The notes beneath the pieces were generated by a model. That model was not told where the DNA came from and did no database searches. It worked only from the letters and a program-made list of their open reading frames with translations. A stretch of 64,000 nucleotides of DNA, from positions 96,001 to 160,000 of the forward strand of contig CAWCXJ010000005.1 in the NCBI GenBank assembly GCA_963799485.1, written 5' to 3'. Both the position numbers and the translations under genes were made by a program. Positions within the stretch are counted from its first letter, which is position 1. Every line of letters begins with the position of its first letter. Below, in pieces: positions 784 through 57,010 of the stretch. This stretch comes from an uncultured Trueperaceae bacterium (GTDB lineage: Bacteria; Deinococcota; Deinococci; Deinococcales; Trueperaceae).

Positions 784-1793
784 TGCCCGCTGATTTCGGT
801 TATATCAACGCCCGCGTGCGCGGCCTTAAAGCCAGGCTTTTAGGCGACGAGTTCTACGCCGCCGCACTCGGCGATTCGGACTTCGGCGCGTTTTTGAGCA
901 GCTTTTCGCAGACTGCTTATGCGCGCGAGGCCGATGAAGCGCAGGCGCGTTACGGCAGCGACCTGCGCGCGGTAGACGACGCGCTCGCCCGCAACTTTTA
1001 CACGACGACCCGGACGCTCCTAAACGTCTCGGACGGGCTTCCGGAGCGGCTCTTAAGACTGCTGCTCTTGCGCTACGACCTCGGCAACCTCAAGACGATT
1101 GCGCGCGCTAAAAGTGCGGGCCGCGAACCTGACGAGGTGCAGGCGGGGTTGTTGCCCGCCGGCGAACTCAAACCGGCGGTTTTAGAGTCCATTGCGCAGG
1201 CGAGCGATTTGCCGGCGGCGGCGCAGGCGGTCGCCGTAACCGGGCATCCGCTCGGGGGCGCTTTTACCCGCGCGGTCGCCAAGTTCACTTCGGACAATGA
1301 TTTGTACGACCTCGAGCTGACCCTAGACCGCGCTTACTACGAAGCGCTCAGTGAAGAGGTGGCGAAGGGCGGTTTTCCCAAAGACTTCGCCCGCTACGTT
1401 CAGCGTGAAATCGACGCGACGAACATCCGCACGGCGCTTAAACTGCGCGGCGCGGAAGATGCCGACGCCGACGCCCTGTTCATCAAGGGGGGTAAAGAGG
1501 TGCGGCGCACGACCTTTGATACGCTCCTGACCGGCGACTTACAGGCGCTCGCGAGTACAACCTTCGCCGAAGTCGCCGAAACCGACGACCTGAGCCGCGC
1601 CGAAGAGATCTTACGCGAAAGTCTCGACGCACAGGCCCGCAAATTGGCGCTCCGCGACCCGCTCGGCGTCGGCGTGATCCTCAACTACTTGCGCCTTAAA
1701 GAAAATGAGACCGCCCGCCTCAGGCTGTTAGCGCGGGGCAAGTTTTACGGCGTCCCCAGAAACCGCTTAGAACAGGAGCTTGGTCGTGCCTAG
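783..1793 (+). CDS. atpC: V/A-type ATP synthase subunit C (d/AC39 family)
   Basis: N-terminal FGYINARVRG, EIDATNIRTALK, operon position. Confidence 0.92.
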   Translation: MPADFGYINARVRGLKARLLGDEFYAAALGDSDFGAFLSSFSQTAYAREADEAQARYGSDLRAVDDALARNFYTTTRTLLNVSDGLPERLLRLLLLRYDLGNLKTIARAKSAGREPDEVQAGLLPAGELKPAVLESIAQASDLPAAAQAVAVTGHPLGGAFTRAVAKFTSDNDLYDLELTLDRAYYEALSEEVAKGGFPKDFARYVQREIDATNIRTALKLRGAEDADADALFIKGGKEVRRTTFDTLLTGDLQALASTTFAEVAETDDLSRAEEILRESLDAQARKLALRDPLGVGVILNYLRLKENETARLRLLARGKFYGVPRNRLEQELGRA

Positions 1794-2115
1794 AATGGTT
1801 ATTTTGACCGACAGCGAAACGGCGACCGGGTTTCGTCTGGCGGGCGTCGAGGTGCGCGAAGCCGACCCGGAAGGCGCGCAGAGTGCGCTCGAGGACTTGA
1901 TCGCGTCGAACGATTTCGGTCTGGTCGCCGTCGATGAGTCGCTCATCGCCGATCCGAACCGCTCGTCGGCGCGCGCCATGCGGGGCCGCGAACTACCGGT
2001 CTTGCTCACTATGCCGAGCCTCGGGGCCGCGTTCGACGAGGAGAGCGGTGACGCCGCCGAGTACATGAAACAGCTCGTCCGCAGCGCGATAGGTTTTGAC
2101 GTCAAGCTCGAGTAA
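1786..2115 (+). CDS. atpF: V/A-type ATP synthase subunit F
   Basis: DSETATGFRLAGV motif and VRSAIGFDVKL end; GTG at 1786 follows an AGGAG RBS. Confidence 0.92.
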   Translation: MPRMVILTDSETATGFRLAGVEVREADPEGAQSALEDLIASNDFGLVAVDESLIADPNRSSARAMRGRELPVLLTMPSLGAAFDEESGDAAEYMKQLVRSAIGFDVKLE

Positions 2116-2185
2116 TTCGTACGCCAACTCCGTGCGGGCAGCCCCGGCGCGGTCTACACTAGAATAGACTACCAAAGGAGGAACT

Positions 2186-3925
2186 GTGGCGATTGAAGGA
2201 AAAGTACAGCGTATCTCCGGCCCGGCGGTTATCGCCGAGGGGATGATGGGCGCGCGGATGTTCGACATCGTGCGCGTCGGTCAAGAAAACTTGATTGGTG
2301 AGATTATTCGCTTGGACGGCGACACGGCCTTCGTCCAGGTTTATGAAGATACCGGCGGTCTGACGATCGGTGAACCGGTCGTTTCGACCGAGCTGCCGCT
2401 CGCCGTCGAACTCGGGCCGGGGATGCTCAACGGTATCTTCGACGGGATTCAGCGCCCCCTAGACAAAATCAATGAGGCTTCGGGAACCTATATCGACCGG
2501 GGCATTACCGTCAACTCGCTTTCACGCGAAGCCAAATGGCCTTTTACGCCGACTGCCAAAGTGGGTGACGAGGTGAAAGGCGGTCAGGTTCTCGGGACGG
2601 TACCCGAATTTTCGTTTACCCACAAGATTCTCGTACCGCCGAACAAGTCGGGCAAGCTCAAAACGCTCGCCGACGCCGGGGACTACACCGTAGAAGACGT
2701 AATCGGGACGCTCGAGGACGGCACCGAGCTCCGGCTCTACCACCCGTGGGCCGTGCGCCAACCCCGCCCGGTCGAACAAAAACTCGACCCGGTAACGCCG
2801 TTTCTGACCGGAATGCGGATTTTAGATGTGCTTTTTCCGCTCGCCATGGGCGGCACCGCCGCGATTCCGGGGCCGTTCGGTTCGGGCAAAACCGTGACGC
2901 AGCAGTCGATTGCCAAATACGGCAACGCCGATATCGTCGTCTACGTCGGTTGCGGTGAGCGCGGCAACGAGATGACGGATGTGCTCATCGAGTTTCCGGA
3001 ACTTGAAGACCCGCAGACCGGCAACCCGCTCATGCACCGCACGGTGCTCATTGCCAACACCTCGAATATGCCGGTCGCCGCACGTGAAGCCTCGATCTAT
3101 ACGGGCATCACCTTGGCTGAGTACTTCCGCGATCAGGGCTACGCCGTATCGGTCATGGCCGACTCGACCAGCCGCTGGGCCGAAGCGCTCCGCGAAATCT
3201 CCTCACGACTCGAGGAAATGCCCGCAGAAGAGGGGTATCCGCCGTATCTCGCGTCCCGCCTCGCAGCGTTTTACGAACGCGGGGGCCGCGTCACGACACT
3301 CGCCGGTGAACCGGGCGCGGTGTCGATTATCGGCGCAGTTTCACCTGCCGGGGGGGATTTCTCCGAACCCGTCACGCAGTCGACGCTCCGGATTACGGGC
3401 TGCTTCTGGGCGCTCGACGCGTCCCTGGCGCGCCGCCGCCACTTCCCGGCGATCAACTGGAACCGCTCGTACTCGCTATTTACGGGGATTCTCGAGGACT
3501 GGTACGCCGAAAACGTCGCGCCCGACTTTAGCGAACTCCGCGACCGCGCCGTAACGCTTCTCCAACGCGAAGCTGAACTCCAAGAGGTCGTGCAGCTCGT
3601 CGGCCCGGACGCCCTGCAAGACCAGGAGCGTTTGGTCATCGAAGTGGGCCGGATTTTGCGGCAGGACTTCTTGCAGCAAAACGGCTTCGACCCCGTAGAC
3701 GCGTCGTGTTCGATGCCCAAAGCGTATGGGCTGTTGCAGCTGATGATTACGCTTAACGACCAGGCCCGGCGTGCGCTAGACGGTGGCGCGACCGTCGACG
3801 ACATCCTTAAAAATGAGGTCGTCGAAAAGGTCAGCCGCGCCCGTTATGTGCCCGAAGACGAGTTCGAGGCGTATAAAACGGACACGCTTAAAGAACTCGA
3901 CAACGCCTTTGCGGTTCCCGCGTAA
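2186..3925 (+). CDS. atpA: V/A-type ATP synthase subunit A (catalytic)
   Basis: P-loop [27 protein letters not shown]. Confidence 0.98.
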
Positions 3926-3937
3926 AGGAGGGGAGAC

Positions 3938-5395
<1,458 letters not shown>

Positions 5396-6373: not shown

Positions 6374-6447
6374 CCTACGTTTTTACGGGTACTATACAGG
6401 AAGCCTTTGTCCGGCCCAACAGCACAACTCATCTAAAGGGAGACACC

Positions 6448-11510: not shown

Positions 11511-11948
11511 GTGCCGGAAATGACCCGGCAAAATGCCGTGCTCGTTCCGGTAGAGAAGGCGACAAACCGTATCCTCGTCCAAGACAGACGCTACCATAAG
11601 CCCCCACCGTGGGGGTTTTTTGGTGGCGGTATTGAACCGGACGAGACACCGTTAGAAGCGGTTCTTCGTGAGGCTGCTGAAGAGCTGACATTGACGTTAG
11701 CACCGGCTGAGCTGGGATTTTACGGCACCTTTGCCGGGTGTTACGGCGACCTCGAGCTTACACTTCACGCTTTTTTGTGGCCCTTCGACGGCGATCTCAG
11801 CAGTTTTGTGCAACGCGAGGGTGCAGGGATGGAACTCGTTTCTGTGGCTGAAATGCTTGAGCGAACCGAACCCGGCGGCCCCGATTATGCTTTGGCAAAG
11901 GGGCTCGAGCGCCTTTTACGGGCGTCTACACCATACTTAAAACGTTAG
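11511..11948 (+). CDS. NUDIX hydrolase
   Basis: Nudix box [22 protein letters not shown]. Confidence 0.88.
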
Positions 11949-13278
11949 GCTTCCGCGCTACCGACCCGACCACGTCACCCGTCAAATCATAAGCCGTTGC
12001 CCCCGTAATCTTCACCTTGACGATGTCACCGATTTTTACGGTGCCGTCGCTCGTTGCAAAAACGTTGCCGTCAATTCCCGGCGCGTCGGCTTTGCTGCGC
12101 CCCACGAGGTCGCCGGGAAACTCGCCGTAATCGTCTACGATGACCTCGAGCACCCGCCCAACTTTGCCCCGGTTAATATCCAAGCTAATCTCTTGCTGCG
12201 TCGCCATCAGCCGCTCGAACCGCTCCTGCTTGACCTCTTCAGGCACCTGGTCGGGAAAACTGTTCGCCGCTGCGCCCGGAACCTCGCTGTAGGTAAACGC
12301 GCCGACACGCTCGAGCCTCGCTTCCCGTAAAAAGTCCAAAAGCTGCTGGAAGTCGTCCTCGGTCTCACCGGGAAAACCGACGATAAAGGTTGAGCGAATC
12401 GCCAGTTCCGGGCAGATGTCGCGCCACGCTTGGATGGTCTCCAAGTGACTCTTAGCACCACCGGGCCGCCGCATCGCCTTCAGGATTTTCGGACTGGCGT
12501 GCTGCAAGGGTACGTCCAGATAGGGAAGAAGCTTGCCCTCCGCCATCAGTGGAATCAGGTTTTTGACGTGCGGATATGGGTAGACGTAGTGGAGCCGCAC
12601 CCATACGCCCATCTCGGCGAGTTCTGTGACTAGCGGGCCAAGATGCGCCTCGACCTGCCGCCCCTGAAACTCGCTTTTACGGTGCCCGATATCCGAGCCG
12701 TAAGCCGACGAGTCTTGCGCGATGACCACAAGCTCTTTAGTGCCGCTTGCTGCCAGCCGGTACGCTTCGTAAAGGATGTTGCCGGCGTCTCTCAAGTCTT
12801 GCAACCCGCGCATCTGCGGGATGATGCAAAACGCACATTTGTGGTTGCAGCCTTCGGCAATCTTCAGGTACGAATAGTGACGTGGCGTGAGCTTGACGCC
12901 TTGCGGCGGGACGAGGCTGGTAAAAGGGTTGTCGTCACGCGGCAGGGTATGGTGAACCGCCGCCATCACACCGTCTACGTCGGCCTGTCCGGTCACAGCC
13001 AACACGCTCGGGTGACGCGCCATAATCTCGTCCGGACGTTCGCCCAAGCAACCTGTCACGATGACCTTGCCGTTTTGCTCCAAGGCTTCACCGATGGCAC
13101 CCAAAGACTCTTCGACCGCCGGGGTGATAAAGCCGCAGGTGTTGACGACGACCAGCTCGGCCTCGTCGTAACTGGGGACGACGCTGTAGCCCTCGGCGCG
13201 GAGCTGGGTGAGGATGCGTTCGCTATCGACGAGGGCTTTGGGGCAGCCCAGACTTACAAAACCGACTTTGCCAGACAT
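11926..13278 (-). CDS. rimO: Ribosomal protein S12 methylthiotransferase RimO
   Basis: [13 protein letters not shown]-terminus, radical [12 protein letters not shown]-terminal TRAM with DAPGIDG. Confidence 0.96.
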
Positions 13279-19383: not shown

Positions 19384-19487
19384 CTCGGGTCGGCCCGTAA
19401 AAAACGGGGCAAAGATTTACGGCGTTTTACGGCGCGTTGAAACTACAAAACCGACTGCAAAGCGCCGTAAAAGCGGGACTCTCGCGG

Positions 19488-21617
19488 CTAGCTCGAGAGT
19501 CCTTCTAATACCTCGAGCCGTCCGAGTTCCCTCAAAGACCCGCTGACCTCATCTAGTAGCGCCAGCCGGTTGCGGCGCACGGCGTTGTCGTCTACCATCA
19601 CCAGCACGTTGTCTAAAAAGGCGTCGAGCGGCGCTTTGAGCGCCAAGATGTCGGGCAGACCGGGCAGCGCCGTCAGCTCACGCGCGGGGCCAACGCCCAA
19701 ATCCCACGGCGTCAGCTCTTGCCGCACTGCCGCTAAAAGCTCCTCCAAGGCACCCTTGGCTTCTGGAATCGCGTCGTAAAGGGGCTGCTCGAAGGGGCTC
19801 GAGAAACGCTTGGGGTTGATTTCGGTTTCGCCGCCCAACTGCTTGGCGAGGTTGGCGGCGCGTTTGTAGAGCTGCAGCAGGCTTTCAAACTCCGCTTCCC
19901 GGCTGAGCGTTTCAAGCAGGTGGGCGCGCCTGCTCGCGGTGATGACCGGGGGCGCGTCGGCGGTCACGGCCCGGACGAGCGCCTGTGGGACACCCTCTTG
20001 CTCGAGCAGTCCGGCAACTCTGTCCCAGACGAAAGCCGTGACGTTGGCGACCGTTTCCTCCGTTACGGCGGGCGTGTCGCCTTCGTAAGCGGTCGCGGCG
20101 GCGCTTACGATACTGCTTAAACCGACGCGCCACCCCTGCGCGTTCAGGATGCGGGCGACGGCAACGGCGTCACGGCGCAGCCCGAACGGGTCGGCTGAAC
20201 CCGAAGGCCTTTGACCGAGCGCAAAAAAACCGAGCAGTTTGTCCAGACGGTCGGCGAGTGAGAGCACCGCCCCTACCGCCGAACCGGGCAACGGGCCACC
20301 GGAGTTTACGGGCCGGACGCCGGACTCGAGCGCCTCGGCGACCTCTTGGGCTTGCCCTTCAGCGAGCGCGTAGGCACGTCCGATGACGCCCTCTAACTCC
20401 GGCAACTCGTCAACCATCTGCGTGGCGAGGTCGGCTTTGTAGATCGGCAGCGCCCCGCTCAGCGTCTCTTTTTCGGGGCTGCTCAGCGCCAGCAGGTCGG
20501 CCAGCGCGAGCGCGGCGGTGTGCGTCCGGGCTACCTTGTCGGCCATCGTCCCCAAACCTTTGTGAAAGCCGACGCCGGAGAGCGCCCAGGCGTGTTGCGA
20601 CAACGAGCGGCTGCGGTCGGCGTCCCAAAAAAACTGCGCGTCGGAGAGTCGCGGGTTGAGCGCCCCTTCGTAGCCGCGCCGGACGAGTGCCCGGTCAGGC
20701 ACGTCGTTGTTCGACACCCCGACGAAGTACGGGGCTAACGTCCCGCCCTCCCGGCGCGTCGGAAAAAAGCGCTGATGGTGAATCATGGTGGTCGCCAAGA
20801 CCTCTTCGGGCAGCGACAGGTAGCGCTCGTCGAAGTGACCCAGGACGGCAAAGGGAGCCTCGAGCAAATCCGCCACCTCGCCCAGCAGACCCGGTTCGTT
20901 TAGCAGCGTCAAGCCTTCCGCCCCGGCAGCCGCTTCCGCGGCGCGTAAGGTGGCGGCGCGGCGTTCGTCTTGGTCGGCAATCACCGACGCTCGCCGTAAA
21001 ACCGTTTCGTAATCCGAGGCTTGGGGTAGCTGGGGTGCTCCCTCACTCAAGAAGCGGTGTCCGCGCGTGATGCGGCTCGAGCTGACGCCCGCCACCGAAA
21101 CCGGGATTATGGCGTCGTCTAGCAGCGCGACCAGCCACGCCACCGGGCGCAAAAAGGGCGTCTCGACCTCGCCCCAGCGCATTTTACGCGGCGCGGGCAA
21201 ATCGCGCACGAGCGCTTCCAAGAGGGCCGGGAGCAGCTCAGCCGCGTTCTCGCCGCCGAGCTGTTTACGGACGAAGACGTAGGTTCCCTTGTCGGTTTCC
21301 TGAGTGAACAGTTCGGACGGGTCAACGCCGTTCGCCTTGGCAAAGCCTTCGGCGGCGCGGGTCGGTTTGCCGTCCGCGCCGAACGCGGCGCTCACCGCCG
21401 GGCCGCGCTTCAACTCTTCACGCGCTGTGCTCTGCTCCGAAAGCCCTTCGACCAAGACCGCCAGACGGCGCGGTGTGCCGAAGCTGCGGATTGCGTCAAA
21501 CGTCAACCCTGCCGCTTTGAGCCGTTCACCTGCAAGCCGTGCCAGTCCGGTTCGCCCCGGCGACACGTACCAGCTCGGCAGCTCTTCGGTGCCGATTTCA
21601 AACAGCAAGGTCGCCAT
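19488..21617 (-). CDS. glyS: Glycine--tRNA ligase beta subunit
   Basis: LLFEIGTEELP, TPRRLA, PSGSADPFGLRR, VRRNRLALL. Confidence 0.96.
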   Translation of the reverse strand: MATLLFEIGTEELPSWYVSPGRTGLARLAGERLKAAGLTFDAIRSFGTPRRLAVLVEGLSEQSTAREELKRGPAVSAAFGADGKPTRAAEGFAKANGVDPSELFTQETDKGTYVFVRKQLGGENAAELLPALLEALVRDLPAPRKMRWGEVETPFLRPVAWLVALLDDAIIPVSVAGVSSSRITRGHRFLSEGAPQLPQASDYETVLRRASVIADQDERRAATLRAAEAAAGAEGLTLLNEPGLLGEVADLLEAPFAVLGHFDERYLSLPEEVLATTMIHHQRFFPTRREGGTLAPYFVGVSNNDVPDRALVRRGYEGALNPRLSDAQFFWDADRSRSLSQHAWALSGVGFHKGLGTMADKVARTHTAALALADLLALSSPEKETLSGALPIYKADLATQMVDELPELEGVIGRAYALAEGQAQEVAEALESGVRPVNSGGPLPGSAVGAVLSLADRLDKLLGFFALGQRPSGSADPFGLRRDAVAVARILNAQGWRVGLSSIVSAAATAYEGDTPAVTEETVANVTAFVWDRVAGLLEQEGVPQALVRAVTADAPPVITASRRAHLLETLSREAEFESLLQLYKRAANLAKQLGGETEINPKRFSSPFEQPLYDAIPEAKGALEELLAAVRQELTPWDLGVGPARELTALPGLPDILALKAPLDAFLDNVLVMVDDNAVRRNRLALLDEVSGSLRELGRLEVLEGLSS

Positions 21618-29553: not shown

Positions 29554-30453
29554 TTACCGAGCAGCAGCCAAGATAAGCGCCAGCCGCGCCGCCGCTGCAA
29601 CCGGCTCGGCTTCTACCACCCTGACGGGCGTGTTTAGGTGAGCCTCGAGCCCCTCCCACACCACTTCACTCAGGCGCGTAATTCCCCCGGCAAACGCGAC
29701 GGGTAAAGGTGCGCCCAACCGCCCCTGCACGTCCCGCACAAGCCGCGCAAGTTCAGCCCCAGCCTGTTCCAGAATGGCCTTCGCCATTTTATCTCCGGCA
29801 CGTTCGGCTTCCGCGACTGCCGGGGCCAGCGACGCGACGAACTCGCGGCCTCCCTCGTAGACAACCGGCATAATCTCGGGCCATTCGCGGCTACCAAGTC
29901 GCGCGTAAAAAAGCTCTGCCAACGGTGTTTCAGGCGGTTGACTCGCCGCGTCGAAGAGCCGCAAGAGTGCCCTGAGTCCCTGACGCCCAAGCCAGTACCC
30001 GGCCCCGGCGTCGTCGATGAGGTAGCCGTAACCTCCGGCCCGGACGACCTCACCCGCAAGGGTCTCGTGATAGGCGACGCTGCCCGTCCCCGCGTAAACG
30101 AGGACACCTTCACCCGGCCTGAAAACGCTGGCAAACGCGACGTGCATGTCGTTAGCAAGGAGGGTGCGCTCCGGCGTCAGACCTAAAACGTCTTTTACGG
30201 CGCGGGCCAACAGCTCTGCAGCGACCGTTCGCGGATGCAAGCCGGTAATTCCGGCAACGAGCGCGTCCGGGGCACCAACAGCTTTAGCCGCTGCTAAGAT
30301 GCCGACAAATTGCGCCAGCCGCACGTCGTTTTGGCTGAAAATATGCCCGGTCAGCGGCCCGGTGCGCCCCTGACCCAAAATAGCGCCGCGACTCGAGCGT
30401 AAAAGCCAGCGGGTACTCGAGCCCCCCGCATCAATCCCCAAGCCTACGACCAC
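29554..30453 (-). CDS. N-acetylglucosamine kinase-like (BadF/BadG/BcrA/BcrD ATPase family)
   Basis: GIDAGGSST, AGTGS, GGYGYLIDDAGAGYWLG. Confidence 0.88.
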   Translation of the reverse strand: MVVGLGIDAGGSSTRWLLRSSRGAILGQGRTGPLTGHIFSQNDVRLAQFVGILAAAKAVGAPDALVAGITGLHPRTVAAELLARAVKDVLGLTPERTLLANDMHVAFASVFRPGEGVLVYAGTGSVAYHETLAGEVVRAGGYGYLIDDAGAGYWLGRQGLRALLRLFDAASQPPETPLAELFYARLGSREWPEIMPVVYEGGREFVASLAPAVAEAERAGDKMAKAILEQAGAELARLVRDVQGRLGAPLPVAFAGGITRLSEVVWEGLEAHLNTPVRVVEAEPVAAAARLALILAAAR

Positions 30454-34975: not shown

Positions 34976-35215
34976 GTTCGCTCCTTCGTGAAGGGCCGAC
35001 CAGGGGTCGAGGCCGATGTGGGCGCGGAGCATCAGCGAAATGGACAAACCGAAAACCATCAGGCCGAGGTTGAGCTGAACAAGTCTGCGCCAGAATGAGG
35101 CGGTGGCAAGTGGAGCAGCAAGACGGGACACGCCGGTCAGTCTAAGGCGGCGTTCGGGTTTTACGGGTTGCAACGGTAACGTCCCTGGCGTTTTGCGAGC
35201 GTTAGTTTCCGGCAT
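34976..35215 (-). pseudogene. 5' remnant of a YczE/YitT-like membrane protein, truncated at the IS1 remnant
   Basis: RRLVQLNLGLMVFGLSISLMLRAHIGLDPWSALHEG followed by an early stop. Confidence 0.7.
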
Positions 35216-36643: not shown

Positions 36644-38172
36644 TATTCCCACTCGATTGTCGCCGGTGGTTTGCTGGTGATGTCGTACACCACCCGGTTC
36701 ACCGTCGGCACACTGTTGACAATCCGGTTGGAAACCGTCGCTAAAAAGTCGTGTGGCAAGCGCGTCCAGTCGGCGGTCATGCCGTCGGACGAAGACACGG
36801 CCCGGAGCGCGACGGTGTTGGCGTAGGTGCGTTGGTCGCCCATGACGCCGACCGACATGATGGGGGTCAGGATAGCTAGAGCCTGCCAGGTGCTGTCGTA
36901 GAGTCCAAATTCGCGCAGCGCCGAGATAAAGATGTCGTCAACGCGCCGTAAAACCTCGAGCCGTTCCGGGGTCACCTCACCCAGGCAGCGCAGCGCGAGC
37001 CCCGGCCCCGGAAACGGATGACGCCCCGATAAAGCGGGCGGCAAACCCAAAAGCGCAGCGAGTTCGCGTACCTCGTCTTTGAAGAGCGTGCGGAAGGGCT
37101 CGATCAGCTTGAACTGCATATTTGCCGGTAGGCCGCCGACGTTGTGGTGCGATTTGATGTTGGCTGCGCCGTGTCCGCCCGCCGATTCGATCACGTCCGG
37201 GTAGAGCGTGCCTTGCGCCAGAAAGCGAATCCGGCCTTCGGCCTGCTTTTTCCTGACTACCGAATCGAAGACCTCGATAAATTCGCGCCCGATGATCTTG
37301 CGTTTTTGTTCGGGGTCTTCAACGCCTCTGAGCGCTTCTAAAAATGTCTCGGACGCATCAATGACGCTCAGGTTCATACCGACGCCGCGCAGCGCCTTTT
37401 CGACCTCTTGGGCCTCGCCGGTACGCAGCAGGCCGTGATCGACAAACACCGCTTGCAACTTGTCGCCGAGGGCGCGGTTGAGGAGCAGCCCTAAGGTGCT
37501 CGAGTCCACTCCGCCCGAAATCGCTAACAGCACCCGTTCGTCTTTGACCTGCGCTTTGACCTCACGGGTGAGGGACTCGAGGATTTGCTCCGGCGTCCAG
37601 TCGCGCGGGATCCCGGTGCGGCGCAGGAAATTCTCCAGCAGCGTGCGGCCCTTGGGCGTGTGCTGCACCTCCGGGTGAAACTGCATACAGTAAATCCCCC
37701 GCACCGGGTTTTCCATCGCCGCAATTTCGGTGTCGCGGGTGCCGGCGACCACTTCGAAGCCTTGCGGCAAACGCATCACCGAGTCGCCGTGACTCATCCA
37801 CGCCGTAAACTCACCCTCGACGCCGCTAAACAGCTCGCCCCGGTAGCCTGAAAGCTGCGCCTTGCCGTACTCGCGTACCCGGCTCGCCGTGACTTTGCCG
37901 CCCGCGGCCTGCGCGACGAGCTGCATCCCGTAACAGATGGCGAAAATAGGCAAGCGCGCCTCCAGGAGCCCGTGGGGAAGAACGGGCGCACCTTCGTCGT
38001 AAACGCTGCCGGGGCCGCCGGACAAGATGACGCCCCTGGGGTCTTGCGCCAAAATCTCGTCAAGCGTCGCGTCGGCCCCCAAAATGACCGAGAAGGCGCT
38101 TAGTTCGCGGAGCCGCCGCGCGATGAGGCGCGTGTACTGGGAGCCGTAGTCGAGTACGACGATACTAGCCAT
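36643..38172 (-). CDS. guaA: GMP synthase (glutamine-hydrolysing)
   Basis: [45 protein letters not shown]. Confidence 0.98.
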
Positions 38173-41415: not shown

Positions 41416-44040
41416 ATGCCCGAACTCGCCAAACAGTACGACCCTTCAAGCGTAGAAGGAAAATGGGTCAAACGCTGGGCTGAAACGCCCTTTACGGCAG
41501 ATGCACAGAGCGAAAAACCCCCCTTTTGCATCGTCATTCCGCCGCCGAACGTGACGGGCAATTTGCACCTCGGTCACGCCTTCGACAATACGCTTATCGA
41601 CACCCTGATCCGTTTCAAGCGGATGAACGGCTTTGAAGCGCTGTTTCAACCCGGTACCGACCACGCGGGTATCTCCACCCAAGTGCAGGTCGAGCGGGCT
41701 CTGCGCGCCGAAGGCAAAACCAAGGAAGACCTGGGCCGTGAGGCGTTTTTAGAGCGCATGTGGGCTTGGAAAGAGCGTTACGGCGATATTATTTTAGGAC
41801 AGCTTCAGCGGTTGGGAGTTTCCGCCGACTGGAGCCGTACCCGTTTTACGCTGGATGAAGGCTTGACCAGAGCGGTGCGTAAACAGTTTGTAGAGCTGTA
41901 TCACCGGGGGCTCATCTACCGGGGTGAGCGCATCGTCAACTGGGACCCGGAGAGCCGGACGACCTTGAGTGACCTCGAGGTCGACCGCGAAGACCGCCCT
42001 GGAGAGCTCTACACGCTTTCTTACGAACTCGGAAACGGCGGCGCGCTTACGGTTGCGACCGTGCGCCCTGAAACGATCTTCGCCGACGTCGCCTTAGCCG
42101 TTCACCCGGATGACGCGCGCTTTACGCATTTGCACGGACAAAAGGCCCGGATTCCGCTCACCGAACGCTGGATACCGATTATCACCGACGAAGCCGTCGA
42201 GATGGATTTCGGTACGGGCGCGCTCAAGATTACGCCCGCGCACGACCCGACCGACTTTGAAATCGGTGAGCGCCACGGCTTGCCGCACCCGAGCGTGATT
42301 GACCTGGACGCCAAGCTGACGGGAGAACTCGTGCCCGAAGCTTTTAGAGGGCTGGACAGGTTCGAGGCCAGAACCGCCGTCGTTACTGCTTTGCAAGAAG
42401 CCGAGAACCTCGTGAACACGCAGGCTTACACGGTTCCGCTCGGGGTGTCGCAACGCACGGGCGTGCCGGTCGAACCGATTCTCTCAACGCAGTGGTTTTT
42501 CAAGATGGGCGAGGTTGCGCCGCGAGTTCTCGCTGCGCTTGGGGCCGGTGAGATGCGCCTTTCCCCCGAGCGCTACACCAAGGTCAACCGCGACTGGCTC
42601 CAAAACCTGCGCGACTGGAACATCTCCCGGCAGCTCTGGTGGGGCCATCAGATTCCGGCGTGGTTTGATGCTGAGGGCAATATCTATGTGCCCGACCCGG
42701 AAAGTCCCGAGCTCGAGCCGCCCGACGACCCGCGTTATGCGGGCATTACGCTGACCCAAGACAGTGATGTGTTCGACACCTGGTTTTCATCGAACCTCTG
42801 GCCTTTTTCAACCCTCGGCTGGCCCGACTTGGAAGACCCGTTTTTTAGGAAGTTTTACCCGACTTCAGCGCTCGTTACGGGCTACGACATTCTGTTTTTT
42901 TGGGTGACGAAAATGCAGTTGGCAAGTTATGCGTTACTGGACGAAAAGCCTTTCTCTGACATCGTGCTGCACGGGCTGGTCTTGGACGAACACGGGCAGA
43001 AGATGTCGAAATCGAAGGGCAACGGGATCGATCCCTTGACCGTGATGGACGCGTTCGGTGCGGACGCGCTGCGGTTTGCGGTGGCGCATACCTCCACAGG
43101 CGGGCAAGACATCCGCTGGGACGCGCGCCGCGTCGAGATGGGCCGTAACTTCAACAACAAGCTCTGGAACGCAGCGCGGTTTGCGATGCTGAATTTTGGC
43201 GACGCTGTCCCTCGAAGGGACGCCGTAAAACCTGAAACCCTCGCCGACCGCTGGATTTTAAGCCGGTTGCAGCACGCTACTCAGGAGGTGACGCGGCACC
43301 TCGGCGCGTTCGATTTGGGCGCGGCGACCCGCGCCGCCTACGAGTTCGTCTGGTCGGAGTTTTGCGACTGGTACTTGGAGGCGGCGAAACCGGAGCTGCG
43401 CGAAGGCAACGCGGTGACCAGAGCGGTTTTGGCTCGCGTCCTAACCGACATCTTGAAGCTGTTGCACCCGCTCATCCCGTTTATTACTTCAGAGCTGTAC
43501 GAAGCGCTAGGTTTTGACGAGCAGTTGGGTTGGGCGTCTTGGCCCCAGGTTGACAAGGCGTTTACAGATTCTAGAGTAGAGCACGATTTTTCTCTCTTAC
43601 AAGCCTCGGTTACGGAGGTGCGAAATCTAAGAGCGAAGGCAAACGTCCCGTTCTCGCAGAGAATTGACGATCTGCTGGTCAAAGGTGACGTTGCTCGCGT
43701 AATCGGTGAGAACAGAAGGGTTTTTGACAGCCTGGCCAACGCTGGTGTTACCTTTGAGGCAAGTGTAAAGCACACGGATAGTGCCGCCCTCACTTCGGCT
43801 TTTACAGGTGGAGATATAACTGTCCCTCTCGAGGGTCTAGTAGACCTGGACGAGTGGCGGGCAAGGCAGGAAAAACGCCTGAAAGAGCTGCAGAATAACC
43901 GTGACAAAAGTGCTAAAAAGCTGTCAAACGCTAAGTTTGTGCAAAACGCGCCCGCTGCGGTCGTCGAAGAAGAAAAACGTCGCCTTGAAGAAGCCGAAGC
44001 GCTGATTGGGGGGCTCGAGGTCAGCTTGCGTGCGCTTTAG
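41416..44040 (+). CDS. valS: Valine--tRNA ligase
   Basis: PPPNVTGNLHLGH, DWNISRQLWWGH, KMSKSKGN, C-terminal coiled coil (KLSNAKFVQNAP). Confidence 0.98.
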   Translation: MPELAKQYDPSSVEGKWVKRWAETPFTADAQSEKPPFCIVIPPPNVTGNLHLGHAFDNTLIDTLIRFKRMNGFEALFQPGTDHAGISTQVQVERALRAEGKTKEDLGREAFLERMWAWKERYGDIILGQLQRLGVSADWSRTRFTLDEGLTRAVRKQFVELYHRGLIYRGERIVNWDPESRTTLSDLEVDREDRPGELYTLSYELGNGGALTVATVRPETIFADVALAVHPDDARFTHLHGQKARIPLTERWIPIITDEAVEMDFGTGALKITPAHDPTDFEIGERHGLPHPSVIDLDAKLTGELVPEAFRGLDRFEARTAVVTALQEAENLVNTQAYTVPLGVSQRTGVPVEPILSTQWFFKMGEVAPRVLAALGAGEMRLSPERYTKVNRDWLQNLRDWNISRQLWWGHQIPAWFDAEGNIYVPDPESPELEPPDDPRYAGITLTQDSDVFDTWFSSNLWPFSTLGWPDLEDPFFRKFYPTSALVTGYDILFFWVTKMQLASYALLDEKPFSDIVLHGLVLDEHGQKMSKSKGNGIDPLTVMDAFGADALRFAVAHTSTGGQDIRWDARRVEMGRNFNNKLWNAARFAMLNFGDAVPRRDAVKPETLADRWILSRLQHATQEVTRHLGAFDLGAATRAAYEFVWSEFCDWYLEAAKPELREGNAVTRAVLARVLTDILKLLHPLIPFITSELYEALGFDEQLGWASWPQVDKAFTDSRVEHDFSLLQASVTEVRNLRAKANVPFSQRIDDLLVKGDVARVIGENRRVFDSLANAGVTFEASVKHTDSAALTSAFTGGDITVPLEGLVDLDEWRARQEKRLKELQNNRDKSAKKLSNAKFVQNAPAAVVEEEKRRLEEAEALIGGLEVSLRAL

Positions 44041-46877: not shown

Positions 46878-48530
46878 CTAAAAGCTGCCGTCGCCGGTGG
46901 AAAAGGTGTTTACGGGGCCGTCGGAAACGCCGAAACCGACGCCAAAGAAGTCGAAGAAGTCCGCGCCGACCGAGATGGCGTTTTCGCCCTCGATTTCACC
47001 TTCGCTACTTACCGTGCCGTTACTCGTGATGGCGACAGGTTGCCAGTCGTAACCGTGGAAGGGTTGCAGCGCGTCGTTGACGGCGCTGCCGTCTAGGTTA
47101 TGGGACAAGCTAAACTCGGTCTCGGCGCCGAGGTCGACGCCGAGAAAAACCCACTCGAGGGGACTGCCGTCGGCGTGAACCCGGTCGAGTACAGCTGCGC
47201 CGATGTAGAGCAGGTTGTCGCGGTTGTCTACGGCGATATCGTAGGTGGGGGAGACCGATACATCAACCGCGTTGTTATCGGGACTGAGCGCCGCGACCTC
47301 GAGGATCGGCAGCGGGGTGACAAACGCATCTTTGGACGTACTCGAGGCGTCGCCGTAAAACGCTTCGACGCGGTACTGGGTCTTTACGCCGGCCTCCAAG
47401 CCGGCGCTGGCGTCGCGGTAGCTGTACAGCGTGTTGTCTTCGTTTTCCGGGTCCAGCGACGCCTGCGCGGGACTAACCTGCGCGATAGGTACGAGGCCCC
47501 CGGCAGGCCGACCGATCAGCTTGCGGTAGATGCGAAAGCCGGTCGGGAGCGTGTCGCCGTCGTAACTAAAAACAACGTCGGCCCAGATCAAGCCCTCGTC
47601 GAGATAGCCTTGAGCTTTTACACCTGGCTGAGCCTTCGGAGCAAACGCTTTAAGCGCGCTCAAGTCATCTGCGCGCACGGCTTTCATCAGTTCGCGACCA
47701 CTAAAACCGACATCCGCACCGGCCCCGCCCGTGGTGCTGAGCGATCCGAACACGGCGGTGTCGGCAAACGTCACGGCGAACGCGCCCAGGTTGGTTACGT
47801 TGCCGAGGTCGGTTTCGTCTGCCGGAGCGCCGACGCTAACGTAACGCACGACTTCGGTGCGGTTGAAGTTGCCGTCGTAGGCGACGACGTGAACGCTCGT
47901 ATCGCCCTCGAAACCGGTAGTCGAGACCTCGACCGGCGTTTCGCTGCCGTCGAAGCCGAAGCTCGTTCCCGCTACCGAGGCGTTGAGGTAGCCCGAGGTG
48001 CCGCGTGACTGACCGAGCCCTACGGTTGCCAGCTCGTAAAATCTGGTGACGTCGGGATCGGCGACGCTGCCGCTGACCGTAAAGCTCAGGCTGCCGTCGT
48101 CGCCACCGGGGACGCTCGAGCCGTTTTCCAGGCTGACGTTTAGCGTGGGTGAGACCGTGGGTAAAAAGGGATCGAACGCTTCGGCTTGGATGGTGCTGTA
48201 CTTCGTTTCGGCGCGGTCGCCAACCCGCAACCCCTCGACCGTAGACGCTGCGTAACCGTCTTGAGAGAACGTCAGGTCGGCAAAACCCGCAGGGATACCG
48301 AAAAGTCGGTAAAAGCCGTTTTCGTCAGTGGTAGTGCTGATTTCGGTTCCGGCGAGCGTCACCACGGTACCGGTCACAGCGGTTCCGGCTTTGCGGTTGA
48401 CGACGTACCCCGAAACGCTGCCGGTACCCGGTGCCCAAGTCGCCGCGTCGAGCGGCGGCGTAGTGGTTTGTGAACAGGCCGCGAGCACAACGAGCAACGC
48501 TACGACCAGACTGCGCGGATAAAGCTTCAT
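46878..48530 (-). CDS. Lipoprotein with carboxypeptidase-regulatory-like beta-sandwich domain
   Basis: Lipobox LAAC; GSVSGYVV...TTTDENGFYRL..IPAG; co-oriented with the S8 gene. Confidence 0.8.
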   Translation of the reverse strand: MKLYPRSLVVALLVVLAACSQTTTPPLDAATWAPGTGSVSGYVVNRKAGTAVTGTVVTLAGTEISTTTDENGFYRLFGIPAGFADLTFSQDGYAASTVEGLRVGDRAETKYSTIQAEAFDPFLPTVSPTLNVSLENGSSVPGGDDGSLSFTVSGSVADPDVTRFYELATVGLGQSRGTSGYLNASVAGTSFGFDGSETPVEVSTTGFEGDTSVHVVAYDGNFNRTEVVRYVSVGAPADETDLGNVTNLGAFAVTFADTAVFGSLSTTGGAGADVGFSGRELMKAVRADDLSALKAFAPKAQPGVKAQGYLDEGLIWADVVFSYDGDTLPTGFRIYRKLIGRPAGGLVPIAQVSPAQASLDPENEDNTLYSYRDASAGLEAGVKTQYRVEAFYGDASSTSKDAFVTPLPILEVAALSPDNNAVDVSVSPTYDIAVDNRDNLLYIGAAVLDRVHADGSPLEWVFLGVDLGAETEFSLSHNLDGSAVNDALQPFHGYDWQPVAITSNGTVSSEGEIEGENAISVGADFFDFFGVGFGVSDGPVNTFSTGDGSF

Positions 48531-54066: not shown

Positions 54067-54226
54067 TACAGAGAGCGTAGCACGTTACCCGTAAAAACCC
54101 GGTGTAGTCTCTCGAACAAGGTCAAGTAAATCGGTCATGCAAGTTGGCAGGGGAGCTGAGAATAAAGAACGCTTTGATTTTTCCCTGGCACTCTGTTTTC
54201 TACTTCTCCCAACGCTACGCCGCCGG

Positions 54227-55512: not shown

Positions 55513-55749
55513 CTAGACGCCCGACAAATCGTAATTTTTCTGAATAAACGACTCCCATTCGCTCGGTACGTCTTCTTCGGGAAAGATGGCGTTGACCGGG
55601 CAGGCCGGGACGCACGCGCCGCAGTCGATACACTCGTCGGGGTGGATATAGAACTGGTCGGCGGCTTCGTAGATGCACTCGACGGGACACACATCGACGC
55701 ACGACTGATCTTTGACGCCGATGCACGGTTCGGTGATGATATGGGGCAC
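55513..55749 (-). CDS. fdx: Ferredoxin, probably 7Fe [3Fe-4S][4Fe-4S] type
   Basis: CIGVKDQSCVDVCPVEC and CIDCGACVPACP. Confidence 0.94.
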   Translation of the reverse strand: MPHIITEPCIGVKDQSCVDVCPVECIYEAADQFYIHPDECIDCGACVPACPVNAIFPEEDVPSEWESFIQKNYDLSGV

Positions 55750-55831
55750 GGTTTTCCTCCTAAATTAAGTAGCGACGCTTCTCTGGCGAGGGGATGAAAG
55801 ACTCGAGCAAAACGCTCGGAAAGATCTTTGT

Positions 55832-56296: not shown

Positions 56297-56350
56297 GCGC
56301 GTTTTCGACGGCAGCTTGAATGGCGCCGAGCCGAAAACTCTCGAGCCTCT

Positions 56351-56575
56351 CTAGAGCGCGTTTTGTGTATTAAGCGACGCGTTGTAGCCTTCAGCTTCGA
56401 CCGCTTGTAACATCGTCTGCACGTCGGCGGCCCCTTCGACAGTCGCCTCACCTGCTTGCAGGTCGACCTGCGCTTTTTCGACGCCGGGGGTACGCTCGAG
56501 CGCCTCTCTGACCGCCTTGACGCAGTGGTCGCAGGTCATGCCCTCGACGTTGAGCCGGGTTTGATAATGAGCCAT
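56351..56575 (-). CDS. copZ: Heavy-metal-associated (CopZ-like) chaperone
   Basis: VEGMTCDHCV HMA motif; AAGGAG RBS. Confidence 0.9.
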   Translation of the reverse strand: MAHYQTRLNVEGMTCDHCVKAVREALERTPGVEKAQVDLQAGEATVEGAADVQTMLQAVEAEGYNASLNTQNAL

Positions 56576-56608
56576 TGCTATCTCCTTTGTATTGCCTGTA
56601 TTGCCCAA

Positions 56609-56637
56609 ATTCTAGCTTGAGGGCACAGGCCCGTCAA
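56609..56637 (-). promoter_or_regulatory. sigmaA-type promoter of copZ with an overlapping dyad
   Basis: TTGACG-17 bp-TAGAAT on the minus strand; dyad TTGAGGGC-ACAG-GCCCGTCAA. Confidence 0.6.
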
Positions 56638-57010
56638 CGGTGCACGTTACGGTTCACGTGGTTTTTACGGGATTTTCCCGCGCTACTGACGCTTCTATCT
56701 CCAGGTAAAGTGCCACAGGTCAAGCGTAAAACCGCAAACGGACGCCTTCAGCTGATACGGAAAGCTGTGCAGCACGTCCTTTCCCGAATCGGTACAACAG
56801 GGTTTTACAGACCGTTTTACCCCGCAAAAAGGTTTGTGTAGAGGCTCGAGCGTACCGGGTGTGACCGGCATTTCGCCAACCGAGGTGGTTTTGCTTGAAA
56901 TGTAAGCTAGGGCGCTAGACAGCTAAAAAAGGCGGGCGTAGCGTACCGGGGGGTAAAGGCTCGGGACTAGGGGCCGACTACGCTCAAAAACCTGATTCTG
57001 AGGGGGGATT

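What the first reader, a model, noticed from the sequence alone, without database searches (positions are those of the whole stretch)
1743..56670. Non-palindromic 8-mer TTTTACGG/CCGTAAAA is abundant on both strands, like a DNA-uptake sequence
Seen: 25 exact copies by eye (1743, 5345, 6381, 11718, 11914, 12034, 12325, 12675, 19395, 19425, 19465, 20994, 27987, 28195, 29313, 29323, 30193, 33435, 33718, 35159, 36946, 43223, 47353, 54089, 56663), against about 1 from a naive composition estimate, plus many TTTACGG and TTTTACG near-matches. It occurs in different reading frames (F-Y-G, L-L-R, T-V-K, H-R-K), in intergenic DNA and in both orientations. Established: Neisseria and Pasteurellaceae uptake sequences are abundant, non-palindromic, frame-independent, not strand-polarised and often paired in terminators, whereas Chi and KOPS are polarised; Deinococcota are commonly naturally competent. 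Inference: an undescribed genome-wide recognition motif (uptake, nucleoid-protein binding or repair). Caveat: the DNA is generally rich in T/A runs, so the true null is higher than the naive one.
Basis: partly seen in the sequence, partly recalled or inferred. Interest (0 to 1): 0.7.

Follow-up and report, generated by a model that had tools for sequence, protein, structure and literature searches.

The report
Hyper-abundant TTTTACGG word in Truepera
One short non-palindromic DNA word, TTTTACGG, is written about 1,500 times across the chromosome of this uncultured Truepera bacterium and two sister species but not their phages or other relatives, which most resembles the DNA-uptake "self" tags so far known only from Neisseria and Haemophilus relatives.

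Summary
All 25 listed sites are exact, and one more lies at 32302 (26 in all, 13 on each strand, against 2.7 in shuffles). Genome-wide there are 1,547 copies in 3.66 Mb, 23 times the composition estimate. This is the second most over-represented 8-mer family after GCTCGAGC. The excess survives Markov orders 0-6 and codon, synonymous and dicodon shuffles.

The word is really about 10 bases (TTTTACGGCG) with random flanks, so it is not a repeat element. It lies in coding and non-coding DNA alike and in all five stop-free frames. It forces rare codons: TTA is 7.5% of Leu codons overall but 77% in the motif context. It shows no strand polarity.

It is at background level on two phage contigs and lower in accessory DNA. 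Only three of six Truepera species genomes carry it. A sister genus of the same GC content does not.

Orthologous comparisons show many independent gains in two lineages and strong retention.

No Vsr, RecC, ComP-type receptor or shared methyltransferase was found. Competence genes are present in all six genomes, so they do not discriminate.

Best reading (about 0.4): a young uptake-sequence-like "self" word. The function is untested.

The parts
1743..1750 (+). TTTTACGG copy
5345..5352 (+). TTTTACGG copy
6381..6388 (+). TTTTACGG copy
11718..11725 (+). TTTTACGG copy
11914..11921 (+). TTTTACGG copy
12034..12041 (+). TTTTACGG copy, inside the MiaB-like radical-SAM gene 11926-13278(-)
12325..12332 (-). 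TTTTACGG copy, inside the MiaB-like gene
12675..12682 (+). TTTTACGG copy, inside the MiaB-like gene
19395..19472 (.). Intergenic cluster between two convergent genes: three exact copies (19395-, 19425+, 19465-) plus one TTTACGG near-copy directly before 19425
20994..21001 (-). TTTTACGG copy inside glyS (19488-21617, -). Shared with the G005 locus L001; non-motif in L003, L002, L004 and L005
27987..27994 (-). TTTTACGG copy
28195..28202 (+). TTTTACGG copy
29313..29330 (-). Two direct copies 10 bases apart (29313, 29323)
30193..30200 (+). TTTTACGG copy
32302..32309 (-).
33435..33442 (+). TTTTACGG copy
33718..33725 (-). TTTTACGG copy
35159..35166 (+). TTTTACGG copy
36946..36953 (-). TTTTACGG copy
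43223..43230 (-). TTTTACGG copy
47353..47360 (-). TTTTACGG copy
54089..54096 (-). TTTTACGG copy
56663..56670 (+). TTTTACGG copy

Best explanation
TTTTACGG (full form about TTTTACGGCG) is a young, lineage-specific 'self' word of one Truepera subclade. It is written into resident chromosomal DNA by a force that acts on the DNA word itself, not on proteins or RNA. The most likely mechanism is of the uptake-sequence type. The type IV pilus/ComEC competence apparatus of these species would have acquired a sequence bias. Fragments carrying the word would be taken up preferentially from conspecific DNA and recombined in. New copies would then spread and old copies be restored (molecular drive, with or without selection for safe homologous exchange). 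Shown here: the excess, its DNA-level nature, the absence of polarity, its absence from phages, its restriction to a clade, ongoing independent gains and strong retention, and the presence of competence genes. Inferred only: that uptake is sequence-biased, that recombination spreads the word, and which protein reads it.
For: Abundance. There are 1,547 copies, 23x composition. The 10-mer occurs 540 times against 5.9 expected, and the word is the top non-palindromic 8-mer under every Markov order tried. Codon-based nulls fail to explain it.

The force acts on the DNA word. Flanks carry no information. All 5 stop-free frames are used: 180, 326, 285, 310 and 120. TTA is 7.5% of Leu codons overall but 76.6% in the context xTT_CGG. 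GTA goes from 12% to 80% in xCC_AAA. Of 189 FYG tripeptides, 180 are spelled TTTTACGGx. There are about 0.03 copies per T4/A4 run in coding DNA and 0.029-0.041 in the three intergenic classes (highest between divergent genes), and the word is evenly spread along genes.

No polarity. Forward and reverse counts are about equal on each of the larger contigs. Bins by GC-skew sign give 480/480 and 283/294. 100-kb bins are balanced in three genomes.

Self versus foreign. The two phage contigs C2 and C3 (terminase, portal, head, tape measure) hold 0.08 copies per kb against 0.41-0.53 on the large contigs, although their CTCGAG density is host-like. In G005 the density is 0.40 per kb in DNA alignable to G000 and 0.26 in the rest. 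In G001 it is 0.22 against 0.16.

Clade restriction. 10-mer counts against the reversed-word control are G000 540/24, G005 435/17 and G001 196/34. The other three Truepera genomes give 21/5, 25/17 and 16/15, and none of the 25 further relatives shows a comparable excess (the largest is G008, 49/21). G008, at GC 60.5%, has 17 copies per 400 kb against 18 expected.

Dynamics. In 121 kb aligned three ways, the patterns (G000, G005, G001) are 111=7, 110=22, 100=30, 010=23, 001=3, 101=5 and 011=3. Of the 37 sites that parsimony places in the G000/G005 ancestor, only 5 and 3 were lost, while the background 8-mer identity is 0.27. Conservation of G000 sites is 44/106 in G005, against 0.243 for same-composition words, but 1/93 in motif-free G002, against 0.071.

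Parallels in Neisseria. [quoted passage not shown]

Competence genes. ComEC 6/6, secretin 6/6 and prepilins 6/6. G000 has a pilin cluster with a 722-aa PilX_N/DUF4900 protein at C5:83.6-88.8 kb.
Against: No uptake or transformation data exist for these uncultured species.

There is no excess of inverted pairs that could act as terminators. Close pairs are mostly direct or tandem: at 100 bases or less, 79 are direct and 55 inverted.

No ComP_DUS domain was found in 0 of 6 genomes.

ComEC, the secretin and pilins are equally present in motif-free relatives. The G000-type minor-pilin/722-aa cluster is found in motif-free G002 and G004 but not, with these queries, in motif-bearing G001.

No alternative 'dialect' word was seen in 400 kb each of motif-free G002 and G008.

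The density is lower than for neisserial DUS: the 8-mer occurs every 2.3 kb and the 10-mer every 6.8 kb, against about 1.15 kb for DUS.

The distribution is over-dispersed, with short tandem arrays.

From recall, not from a call: uptake in Thermus and Deinococcus is regarded as not sequence-specific.

Every pattern found is also expected for a word kept by selection for another chromosomal function.
Confidence: 0.4

Rival explanations
1. The word is a recognition site for an unknown chromosomal DNA-binding or DNA-processing factor (nucleoid organisation, or self/non-self discrimination in repair or defence). It is kept by natural selection on about 1,500 weakly beneficial sites, as Xu et al. 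argue for cyanobacterial HIP1. Uptake is not involved.
For: Sites are retained far better than same-composition control words. The chromosome carries the word and the phage contigs do not. Short direct arrays at spacings of 8-18 bases in intergenic DNA resemble binding-site arrays. HIP1 shows the same combination of conservation and unknown function (PMC5861425, abstract). The genomes already carry a second iterated word, CTCGAG.
Against: There is no positional preference at all: no difference between promoters, terminators, gene ends or intergenic classes. No candidate protein was identified. I did not test for periodicity. Selection on each of 1,500 sites must be very weak, yet gains are fast in two lineages.
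Confidence: 0.3
2. Methylation- or repair-coupled conversion. A sequence-specific enzyme pair (as in Elhai's model of a methyl-dependent mismatch repair that creates HIP sites) converts near-cognate sites into TTTTACGG. It could be a second specificity of whatever maintains CTCGAG in this family.
For: An iterated palindrome, CTCGAG/GCTCGAGC, is enriched in all 6 Truepera genomes and in G008. The motif-bearing genomes hold more methyltransferase genes: PF01555 in 3 of 3 against 0 of 3, PF00145 in 3 of 3 against 0 of 3, and PF02384 at 6-11 against 2-3. Elhai's abstract reports that a cognate methyltransferase accompanies each alternate HIP (PMC4390886).
Against: The PF01555 enzymes of G000 and G005 share only 24% identity over 140 residues. 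The PF00145 enzymes are 28-32% identical, and in G000 they sit on the phage contigs, which lack the word. No shared specificity is therefore indicated. Vsr was found in 0 of 6 genomes. Substitutions at all 8 positions created the word, and no single neighbour word is depleted. A one-base T:G-type repair cannot give a 7-23x excess. CTCGAG is at host density on the phages while TTTTACGG is not, so the two words behave differently.
Confidence: 0.12
3. Polar guide word of the Chi or KOPS type, read by a helicase-nuclease or translocase in one orientation relative to replication.
For: It is an 8-mer, abundant, enriched on the chromosome and lacking on phages. A 930-970 aa PDDEXK_1-bearing ORF (AddAB-like) is present in 6 of 6 genomes.
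Against: Strand counts are balanced on every large contig and in 100-kb bins of three genomes. The window itself is 13/13. RecC was found in 0 of 6 genomes. The AddAB-like gene is also present in motif-free species. GC skew is weak here, so polarity was judged mainly from contig and bin balance.
Confidence: 0.02
4. Artefact of composition, T-runs, codon or dipeptide usage, or a dispersed repeat element.
For: T-runs are generally enriched: the median TTTTNNNN word is 3.3x composition. High-order Markov models absorb much of the excess, with order 6 expecting 1,327.
Against: The word is 22.8x composition against a 3.3x median for TTTTNNNN words, and it is twice as frequent as the next such word. 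Synonymous, codon and dicodon nulls all fail. Non-coding density is equal or higher. G008 at the same GC shows no excess. The flanks are random.
Confidence: 0.02

Closest known systems
Neisseriaceae DNA uptake sequence (DUS, GCCGTCTGAA and dialects) with the ComP minor-pilin receptor
   Same: It is a short non-palindromic word in hundreds to thousands of copies. It lies on both strands, in genes and between them. It is enriched in core DNA, rare in recently acquired DNA, highly conserved and specific to a lineage. Many single copies differ at several bases from the homologous sites (PMC2397512; PMC3630211 abstract).
   Different: There are no inverted pairs forming terminators and no ComP_DUS domain. 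No dialects were seen in neighbouring lineages. The density is lower. The phylum is different (Deinococcota). The word exists in only 3 of 6 species of one genus, so it is much younger. Uptake preference is untested.
Pasteurellaceae uptake signal sequence (USS, core AAGTGCGGT)
   Same: It is an abundant non-palindromic word found mostly inside genes in several frames. A few positions are strict and others loose: here TTT and CG are strict, while the first T, the A and the last G are loose. In H. influenzae only GCGG is critical (PMC3458573 abstract). Both words end in CGG next to a T-rich stretch.
   Different: There are no helically phased flanking tracts; the flanks are random. The receptor is unknown in both cases. 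No uptake data exist here.
Cyanobacterial HIP1 (GCGATCGC), alternate HIPs, and the CTCGAG iterated palindrome of Deinococcales noted earlier in this scan
   Same: It is a hyper-abundant short word in coding and non-coding DNA. It is conserved between species, distorts codon choice, and has no known function (PMC5861425 and PMC4390886 abstracts). CTCGAG coexists with it in this genome (7,252 sites).
   Different: TTTTACGG is not a palindrome. It is confined to a subclade rather than a family or phylum. It is missing from the phage contigs that do carry CTCGAG. No cognate methyltransferase was found.
Chi and KOPS/FtsK-orienting polar sequences
   Same: They are 8-mers over-represented on the chromosome and poor in phage DNA.
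   Different: Those words are strongly co-oriented with replication. This one is balanced everywhere tested.

Membership tests
DNA uptake sequences (DUS/USS) | Hundreds to thousands of copies of one short non-palindromic word, far above any composition or Markov expectation | tested here: met
   1,547 copies against 68-1,327 expected (orders 0-6). The 10-mer occurs 540 times against 5.9 expected. Codon nulls fail.
DNA uptake sequences (DUS/USS) | Both orientations equally frequent, no replichore polarity, any reading frame, also intergenic | tested here: met
DNA uptake sequences (DUS/USS) | Enriched in the core genome, rare in prophage and recently acquired DNA | tested here: met
   The phage contigs C2 and C3 hold 0.08 per kb against 0.41-0.53 on the large contigs. 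In G005 the aligned part holds 0.40 and the unaligned part 0.26 per kb.
DNA uptake sequences (DUS/USS) | Copies conserved between related species more than the surrounding sequence, with ongoing gains | tested here: met
   44/106 against 0.243 for control words; 35/56 of G001 sites are shared with G000.
DNA uptake sequences (DUS/USS) | Frequent close inverted pairs acting as terminators (typical of Neisseria, not strictly defining) | tested here: not met
   Close pairs are mainly direct. The word's geometry (T-run before ACGG) does not give a stem followed by a U-run.
DNA uptake sequences (DUS/USS) | Related lineages carry variant words (dialects) | tested here: not met
   G000, G005 and G001 share the same consensus. 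No other non-palindromic word stands out in 400 kb of G002 or of G008. G003 and G004 were tested only for this word.
DNA uptake sequences (DUS/USS) | Competence apparatus present (type IV pilus, secretin, ComEC) | tested here: met
   ComEC 6/6, secretin 6/6, prepilins 6/6 and a pilin cluster in G000. This is permissive only, because motif-free species have these genes too. DprA and ComEA were not searched.
DNA uptake sequences (DUS/USS) | ComP-type DUS receptor domain (Neisseriaceae) | tested here: not met
   PF16732 was found in 0 of 6 genomes at E <= 0.1.
DNA uptake sequences (DUS/USS) | Preferential binding, uptake and transformation by DNA carrying the word | not testable with these tools
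   This needs uptake assays or binding assays with purified proteins.
Chi / KOPS polar motifs | Strong co-orientation with replication | tested here: not met
Chi / KOPS polar motifs | Cognate RecBCD/AddAB present specifically where the word is present | tested here: not met
   RecC was found in 0 of 6 genomes. The AddAB-like PDDEXK_1 ORF is in 6 of 6, including motif-free genomes.
Highly iterated palindromes (HIP1 type) | Palindromic word | tested here: not met
   TTTTACGG is not its own reverse complement, CCGTAAAA.
Highly iterated palindromes (HIP1 type) | A methyltransferase of matching specificity accompanies the word | tested here: inconclusive
   PF01555 and PF00145 enzymes occur only in the three motif-bearing genomes but are not orthologous: 24% identity over 140 residues for PF01555 and 28-32% for PF00145. 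The PF02384 enzymes were not resolved. No methylome data are available.
Dispersed repeat elements (REP, MITE) | Conserved sequence extends beyond the core, with a structured unit | tested here: not met
   Information content is about 0 outside positions -1 to +9 over the 1,547 copies.
Very-short-patch (Vsr) repair bias | Vsr endonuclease present and one depleted transition neighbour | tested here: not met
   Vsr was found in 0 of 6 genomes. No neighbour word is depleted. All 8 positions changed in the gains.

The most novel reading that the evidence does not exclude
Deinococcales possess a so-far-unknown machinery that writes chosen short words into resident DNA. The family-wide CTCGAG palindrome would be its old product. 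In one Truepera subclade the machinery has recently acquired a second, non-palindromic specificity, TTTTACGGCG. Its birth, spread (G000, G005) and stalling (G001) can be followed species by species. This would be a sequence-directed conversion system, not an uptake bias.
Probability: 0.12. Interest if true: 0.9.

Novelty: new variant of a known kind. Interest (0 to 1): 0.68.

Why it matters
To my knowledge (recalled; no call surveyed this), genomic words tied to DNA uptake specificity are established only in Neisseriaceae and Pasteurellaceae. Both systems are old, so how such a system is born is unknown.

Here a word with nearly all the genomic hallmarks of an uptake sequence exists in only three of six species genomes of one genus, in a different phylum known for natural competence. 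Two lineages are still gaining copies fast and a third has nearly stopped. If it is an uptake signal, it offers a natural time series for the origin of uptake specificity, and it points to a receptor other than ComP.

If it is not an uptake signal, it is a non-palindromic counterpart of the unexplained HIP words. It sits in the same genome as a HIP-like palindrome, which allows the two to be contrasted directly.

In practice the word also separates resident chromosome from phage and island DNA in these metagenome-assembled genomes.

Tried and rejected
1. Repeat element. Rejected: the flanks are random.

2. Codon, dipeptide or dicodon explanation. Rejected.

3. GC or AT-run explanation. Rejected: the TTTTNNNN median is 3.3x, and the GC-matched sister genus G008 shows no excess.

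4. Replichore polarity. None found. GC skew is too weak to place the origin.

5. Terminator-type inverted pairs. No excess.

6. Dialects in motif-free relatives. None in 400 kb each of G002 and G008.

7. Positional bias (gene deciles, upstream/downstream, intergenic class). None.

8. Elevated flank divergence around lineage-specific copies, as a trace of import by recombination. Differences were only 1-2 standard errors, so this is uninformative at about 80% identity.

9. Correlation with the minor-pilin/722-aa cluster. Rejected: the cluster is found in G000, G005, G002 and G004 and not in G001 and G003.

10. Correlation with methyltransferases. PF01555 and PF00145 are present only in the motif-bearing genomes, but the enzymes are not orthologous.

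11. Vsr, RecC and ComP_DUS. Absent in 6 of 6 genomes.

12. The densest clusters of the word. There are only 4 clusters of four or more copies, with no common neighbouring gene.

13. Literature. No paper holds Truepera together with 'uptake sequence'. No paper holds the word or its complement as a whole word.

14. Technical. One search timed out while loading a large table and was repeated.

Not attempted: a whole-genome gene-content contrast, a periodicity test, read-level polymorphism, and structure or complex prediction.


Full report
OBSERVATION.
- The window holds 26 exact copies of TTTTACGG, 13 on each strand.
- Dinucleotide-preserving shuffles give a mean of 2.67 and a maximum of 7; 0 of 100 reach 26.
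- The window is G000:C5:96001-160000 of a 3,655,195-base genome in 15 contigs with GC 59%.
- Its GlyS protein is 91, 85, 79 and 75% identical to loci whose record titles read 'Truepera sp.'.

IS IT MORE THAN CHANCE?
- Genome-wide there are 1,547 copies, about 0.42 per kb.
- Expected counts from Markov models trained on the same genome are 68 (order 0), 158 (1), 250 (2), 322 (3), 676 (4), 1,078 (5) and 1,327 (order 6, z 11.5).
- Under every order the word ranks among the top dozen of 65,513 8-mers. It is the first non-palindromic family, and only the GCTCGAGC family ranks above it.
- High-order models trained on the genome absorb the word's own sub-words, so they are conservative.
- Inside 3,170 genes from my own simple ORF caller (83% of the genome, so short genes are missed) there are 1,223 copies. 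A synonymous-codon shuffle gives 213 +/- 13, a codon permutation gives 131, and a dicodon Markov model gives 509 +/- 24. The 10-mer occurs 433 times against 39, 17 and 96.
- T-runs are generally enriched: the median TTTTNNNN word is 3.3x composition. TTTTACGG is 22.8x and twice as frequent as the next such word.

ANATOMY OF THE WORD.
- Aligning all 1,547 copies shows information only from position -1 (A avoided) to +9. The next two bases are C (54%) and G (52%), and everything beyond is at background.
- The word is thus about TTTTACGGCG (540 copies against 5.9 expected). It is not part of a REP, MITE or other element.
- Single-base variants show that TTT (positions 2-4) and CG (6-7) are strict: those variants fall to background. 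The first T, the A and the last G are looser, and their variants are still 3-9x composition. No single neighbour word is depleted.

WHERE IT LIES.
- Density is 0.40 per kb in coding DNA and 0.51 per kb in non-coding DNA.
- All five frames that avoid a stop codon are used: sense 180, 326 and 285, antisense 310 and 120.
- Codon choice is bent to spell the word. TTA is 7.5% of Leu codons overall but 76.6% between xTT and CGG. GTA is 12% of Val codons but 80% between xCC and AAA. Of 189 Phe-Tyr-Gly tripeptides, 180 are TTTTACGGx.
- The word is evenly spread along genes. It shows no preference for upstream or downstream regions or for any intergenic class. There are about 0.03 copies per T4/A4 run in coding DNA and 0.029-0.041 in the three intergenic classes.
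- The force therefore acts on DNA, not on peptides, RNA signals, promoters or terminators.

STRAND AND SPACING.
- Forward and reverse counts are near equal on the larger contigs, for example 160/170, 121/128 and 117/119.
- Bins with positive or negative GC skew give 480/480 and 283/294. The skew is weak here, so bin balance is the main argument.
- 100-kb bins in 400-kb stretches of G005 and G001 are balanced too. Chi/KOPS-type polarity is excluded.
- Close pairs are about twice as frequent as Poisson expectation (134 against 66 at 100 bases or less). They are mainly direct, and short tandem arrays at 8-18-base spacing occur in genes and between them. There is no excess of inverted pairs of the terminator kind.

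WHERE IT IS MISSING.
- Contigs C2 (88 kb) and C3 (53 kb) hold 0.08 copies per kb, which is the T-run background level. Their CTCGAG density is host-like, at 1.8-1.9 per kb.
- These contigs encode terminase, portal, major head, tape-measure, tail-spike and DnaB-like proteins, so they are phage genomes.
- Several chromosomal 10-kb windows also lack the word, for example C4:220-240 kb at GC 64-67%. Counts per 10 kb are over-dispersed, with variance 21.7 against mean 9.0.
- In G005, density is 0.40 per kb in DNA alignable to G000 and 0.26 in the rest, although the rest is more AT-rich. In G001 it is 0.22 against 0.16.

WHO HAS IT.
- Among 31 genomes (G000 plus 30 relatives), the 10-mer against its reversed control is 540/24 in G000, 435/17 in G005 and 196/34 in G001.
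- The other three genomes of the genus give 21/5, 25/17 and 16/15. G008 gives 49/21, and no other genome shows an excess.
- In 400-kb samples, the 8-mer count against the order-0 expectation is 135 against 8.8 in G005 and 80 against 8.2 in G001.
- G002 (GC 68%) has 11 against an order-3 expectation of 9.2. G008, a sister genus at GC 60.5%, has 17 against 18. Base composition therefore does not produce the word.
- The consensus is the same in the three carriers. No other non-palindromic word stands out in G002 or G008.
- In contrast, GGCTCGAGCC is enriched in all 5 other Truepera genomes and GCTCGAGC in G008. This palindrome is an older, wider feature. Earlier reports of this scan describe it in other Deinococcales.

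HOW IT EVOLVES.
- In BLAST alignments of the samples to G000 (mean identity 80.6, 78.7 and 72.7%), G000 copies are conserved at 44/106 in G005 and 35/130 in G001. Other 8-mers of the same composition are conserved at 0.243 and 0.193.
- Of G001's copies, 35/56 are shared with G000.
- Against motif-free G002, only 1/93 G000 copies are conserved, below the control rate of 0.071. The sites were therefore made after that split, by substitutions at all eight positions and with few indels.
- After fetching the matching G001 stretches, 121,209 positions are covered three ways. The presence patterns (G000, G005, G001) are 111=7, 110=22, 101=5, 011=3, 100=30, 010=23 and 001=3.
- By parsimony on the tree ((G000,G005),G001), 37 sites predate the G000/G005 split. 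Only 5 and 3 of them were lost since, while the background 8-mer identity between those genomes is 0.27.
- Each of the two lineages has gained 23-30 new sites of its own. Some gains involve 2-4 changes in one lineage while the other two genomes stay identical.
- G001 has only 3 private sites among its 18.
- The word is thus being created and protected now in G000 and G005, and much less so in G001.
- Treangen et al. describe the same pattern for neisserial DUS: enriched in the core, absent from recent acquisitions, highly conserved, and with many single copies too divergent for point mutation (PMC2397512, abstract and passages).
- A test for more divergent flanks around new copies gave differences of only 1-2 standard errors.

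SEARCH FOR THE MACHINERY.
- ComEC, a secretin and prepilins are found in 6 of 6 Truepera genomes.
- G000 has a pilin cluster 7-12 kb upstream of the window. It contains a 722-aa PilX_N/DUF4900 protein and three N-methyl prepilins.
- That cluster's 722-aa and 315-aa proteins are found in G000, G005, G002 and G004 but not in G001 or G003. Its presence does not track the word.
- The ComP_DUS domain, Vsr and RecC are found in 0 of 6 genomes. An AddAB-like PDDEXK_1 ORF is found in 6 of 6.
- PF01555 and PF00145 methyltransferases occur only in the three carriers. The G000 and G005 PF01555 enzymes sit in different type III-like loci and share 24% identity over 140 residues.
- The PF00145 enzymes are 28-32% identical, and in G000 they lie on the phage contigs. 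No shared specificity is indicated.
- The PF02384 enzymes are numerous in the carriers (6, 10 and 11 against 2-3) and were not resolved.

INTERPRETATION.
- A mechanism must 'see' the whole 8-10-base word and act on resident chromosomal DNA in either orientation and at any position. It must spare phages, be new to one subclade, and both create and preserve copies.
- One-base repair biases, polar guide words, peptide or RNA signals and repeat elements all fail these requirements.
- Two classes remain. The first is a recombination-coupled drive through sequence-biased DNA uptake (the DUS/USS model; Maughan et al. 2010 as cited in PMC3458573). The second is selection for an unknown chromosomal reader, as proposed for HIP1 (PMC5861425 abstract).
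- I favour the first, at about 0.4. The phylum is known for natural competence (recalled), the apparatus is present, and the match to the neisserial pattern is close.
- Points against it: no terminator pairs, no dialects, no known receptor family, a lower density than DUS, and local tandem arrays.
- The second class gets about 0.3. A methylation/repair conversion of Elhai's kind (PMC4390886 abstract) gets about 0.12.

NOVELTY AND LIMITS.
- No paper in the searched library holds Truepera together with 'uptake sequence'. None holds the word or its complement as a whole word.
- Gene calls are from my own crude ORF caller.
- Relatives were sampled at 400-500 kb each, not whole.
- G000 has 4.63% estimated contamination. 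The assignment of the phage contigs to this host rests on their CTCGAG density.
- Kin genomes are not independent samples.
- No function was tested.

Noticed in passing
window, whole length (107 CTCGAG sites); genome-wide: The palindrome CTCGAG (extended form GCTCGAGC or GGCTCGAGCC) is the most over-represented word family. It has 7,252 sites, 6.2x composition and 3.5x a synonymous shuffle. It is enriched in all 5 other Truepera genomes and in the sister genus G008, and it is also at host density on the phage contigs. It is a HIP1-like iterated palindrome, already noted elsewhere in this scan.
   Followed up: partly
G000:C2 (87,954 bases) and G000:C3 (52,597 bases), outside the window; loci L091-L094, L135-L137: These are two related siphovirus-like phage contigs with terminase, portal, major head, a tape measure of about 2,000-2,200 aa, tail spike and a DnaB-like helicase. 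Each carries a C5 DNA methyltransferase next to the terminase gene. They hold the only PF00145 genes in G000.
   Followed up: partly
G000:C5:83,646-88,795 (7-12 kb upstream of the window; L095 5.6-10.8 kb): A type IV pilin cluster: a short major-pilin-like ORF, a 722-aa PilX_N/DUF4900 protein and three N-methyl prepilins. The cluster is 52-56% identical in G005. It is present in G002 and G004 and was not found in G001 or G003.
   Followed up: partly
G000:C4:100,470-110,583 (L116 4470-14583): A defence-like locus: a ResIII helicase (1,076 aa), an N6_N4 methyltransferase (1,084 aa) and an SNF2 helicase (966 aa), so type III-like or DISARM-like. A bacterial type IB topoisomerase gene lies about 2 kb away (L116 1053-2297). 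The locus has normal TTTTACGG density (10 in 18 kb).
   Followed up: no
G000:C5:17,251-17,484 and C6:454,595-454,678 (outside the window): These are the densest intergenic arrays of the word: 8 TTTACGG-type copies in 234 bases, and 5 copies that include a 14-base tandem unit. Their function is unknown.
   Followed up: no
G000:C9 (227,983 bases): This contig has an intermediate TTTTACGG density (0.27 per kb against 0.41-0.53 elsewhere) with normal CTCGAG density. It may be a secondary replicon or rich in islands.
   Followed up: no
window 19395-19410: CCCGTAAAAAACGGGG forms a small hairpin (CCCGT / ACGGG) between the convergent genes 17595-19109(+) and glyS 19488-21617(-). One copy of the word forms its left arm.
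   Followed up: no
G002 sample (L069-L088): A CRISPR-like repeat beginning GTTTCAATCC occurs 43 times (counted over both strands) in the 400-kb sample of the motif-free relative G002.
   Followed up: no
genus-wide: The three motif-bearing genomes carry many more DNA methyltransferase genes than the three motif-free ones. PF02384 is 6, 10 and 11 against 2-3, and PF01555 and PF00145 occur only in the carriers.
   Followed up: partly
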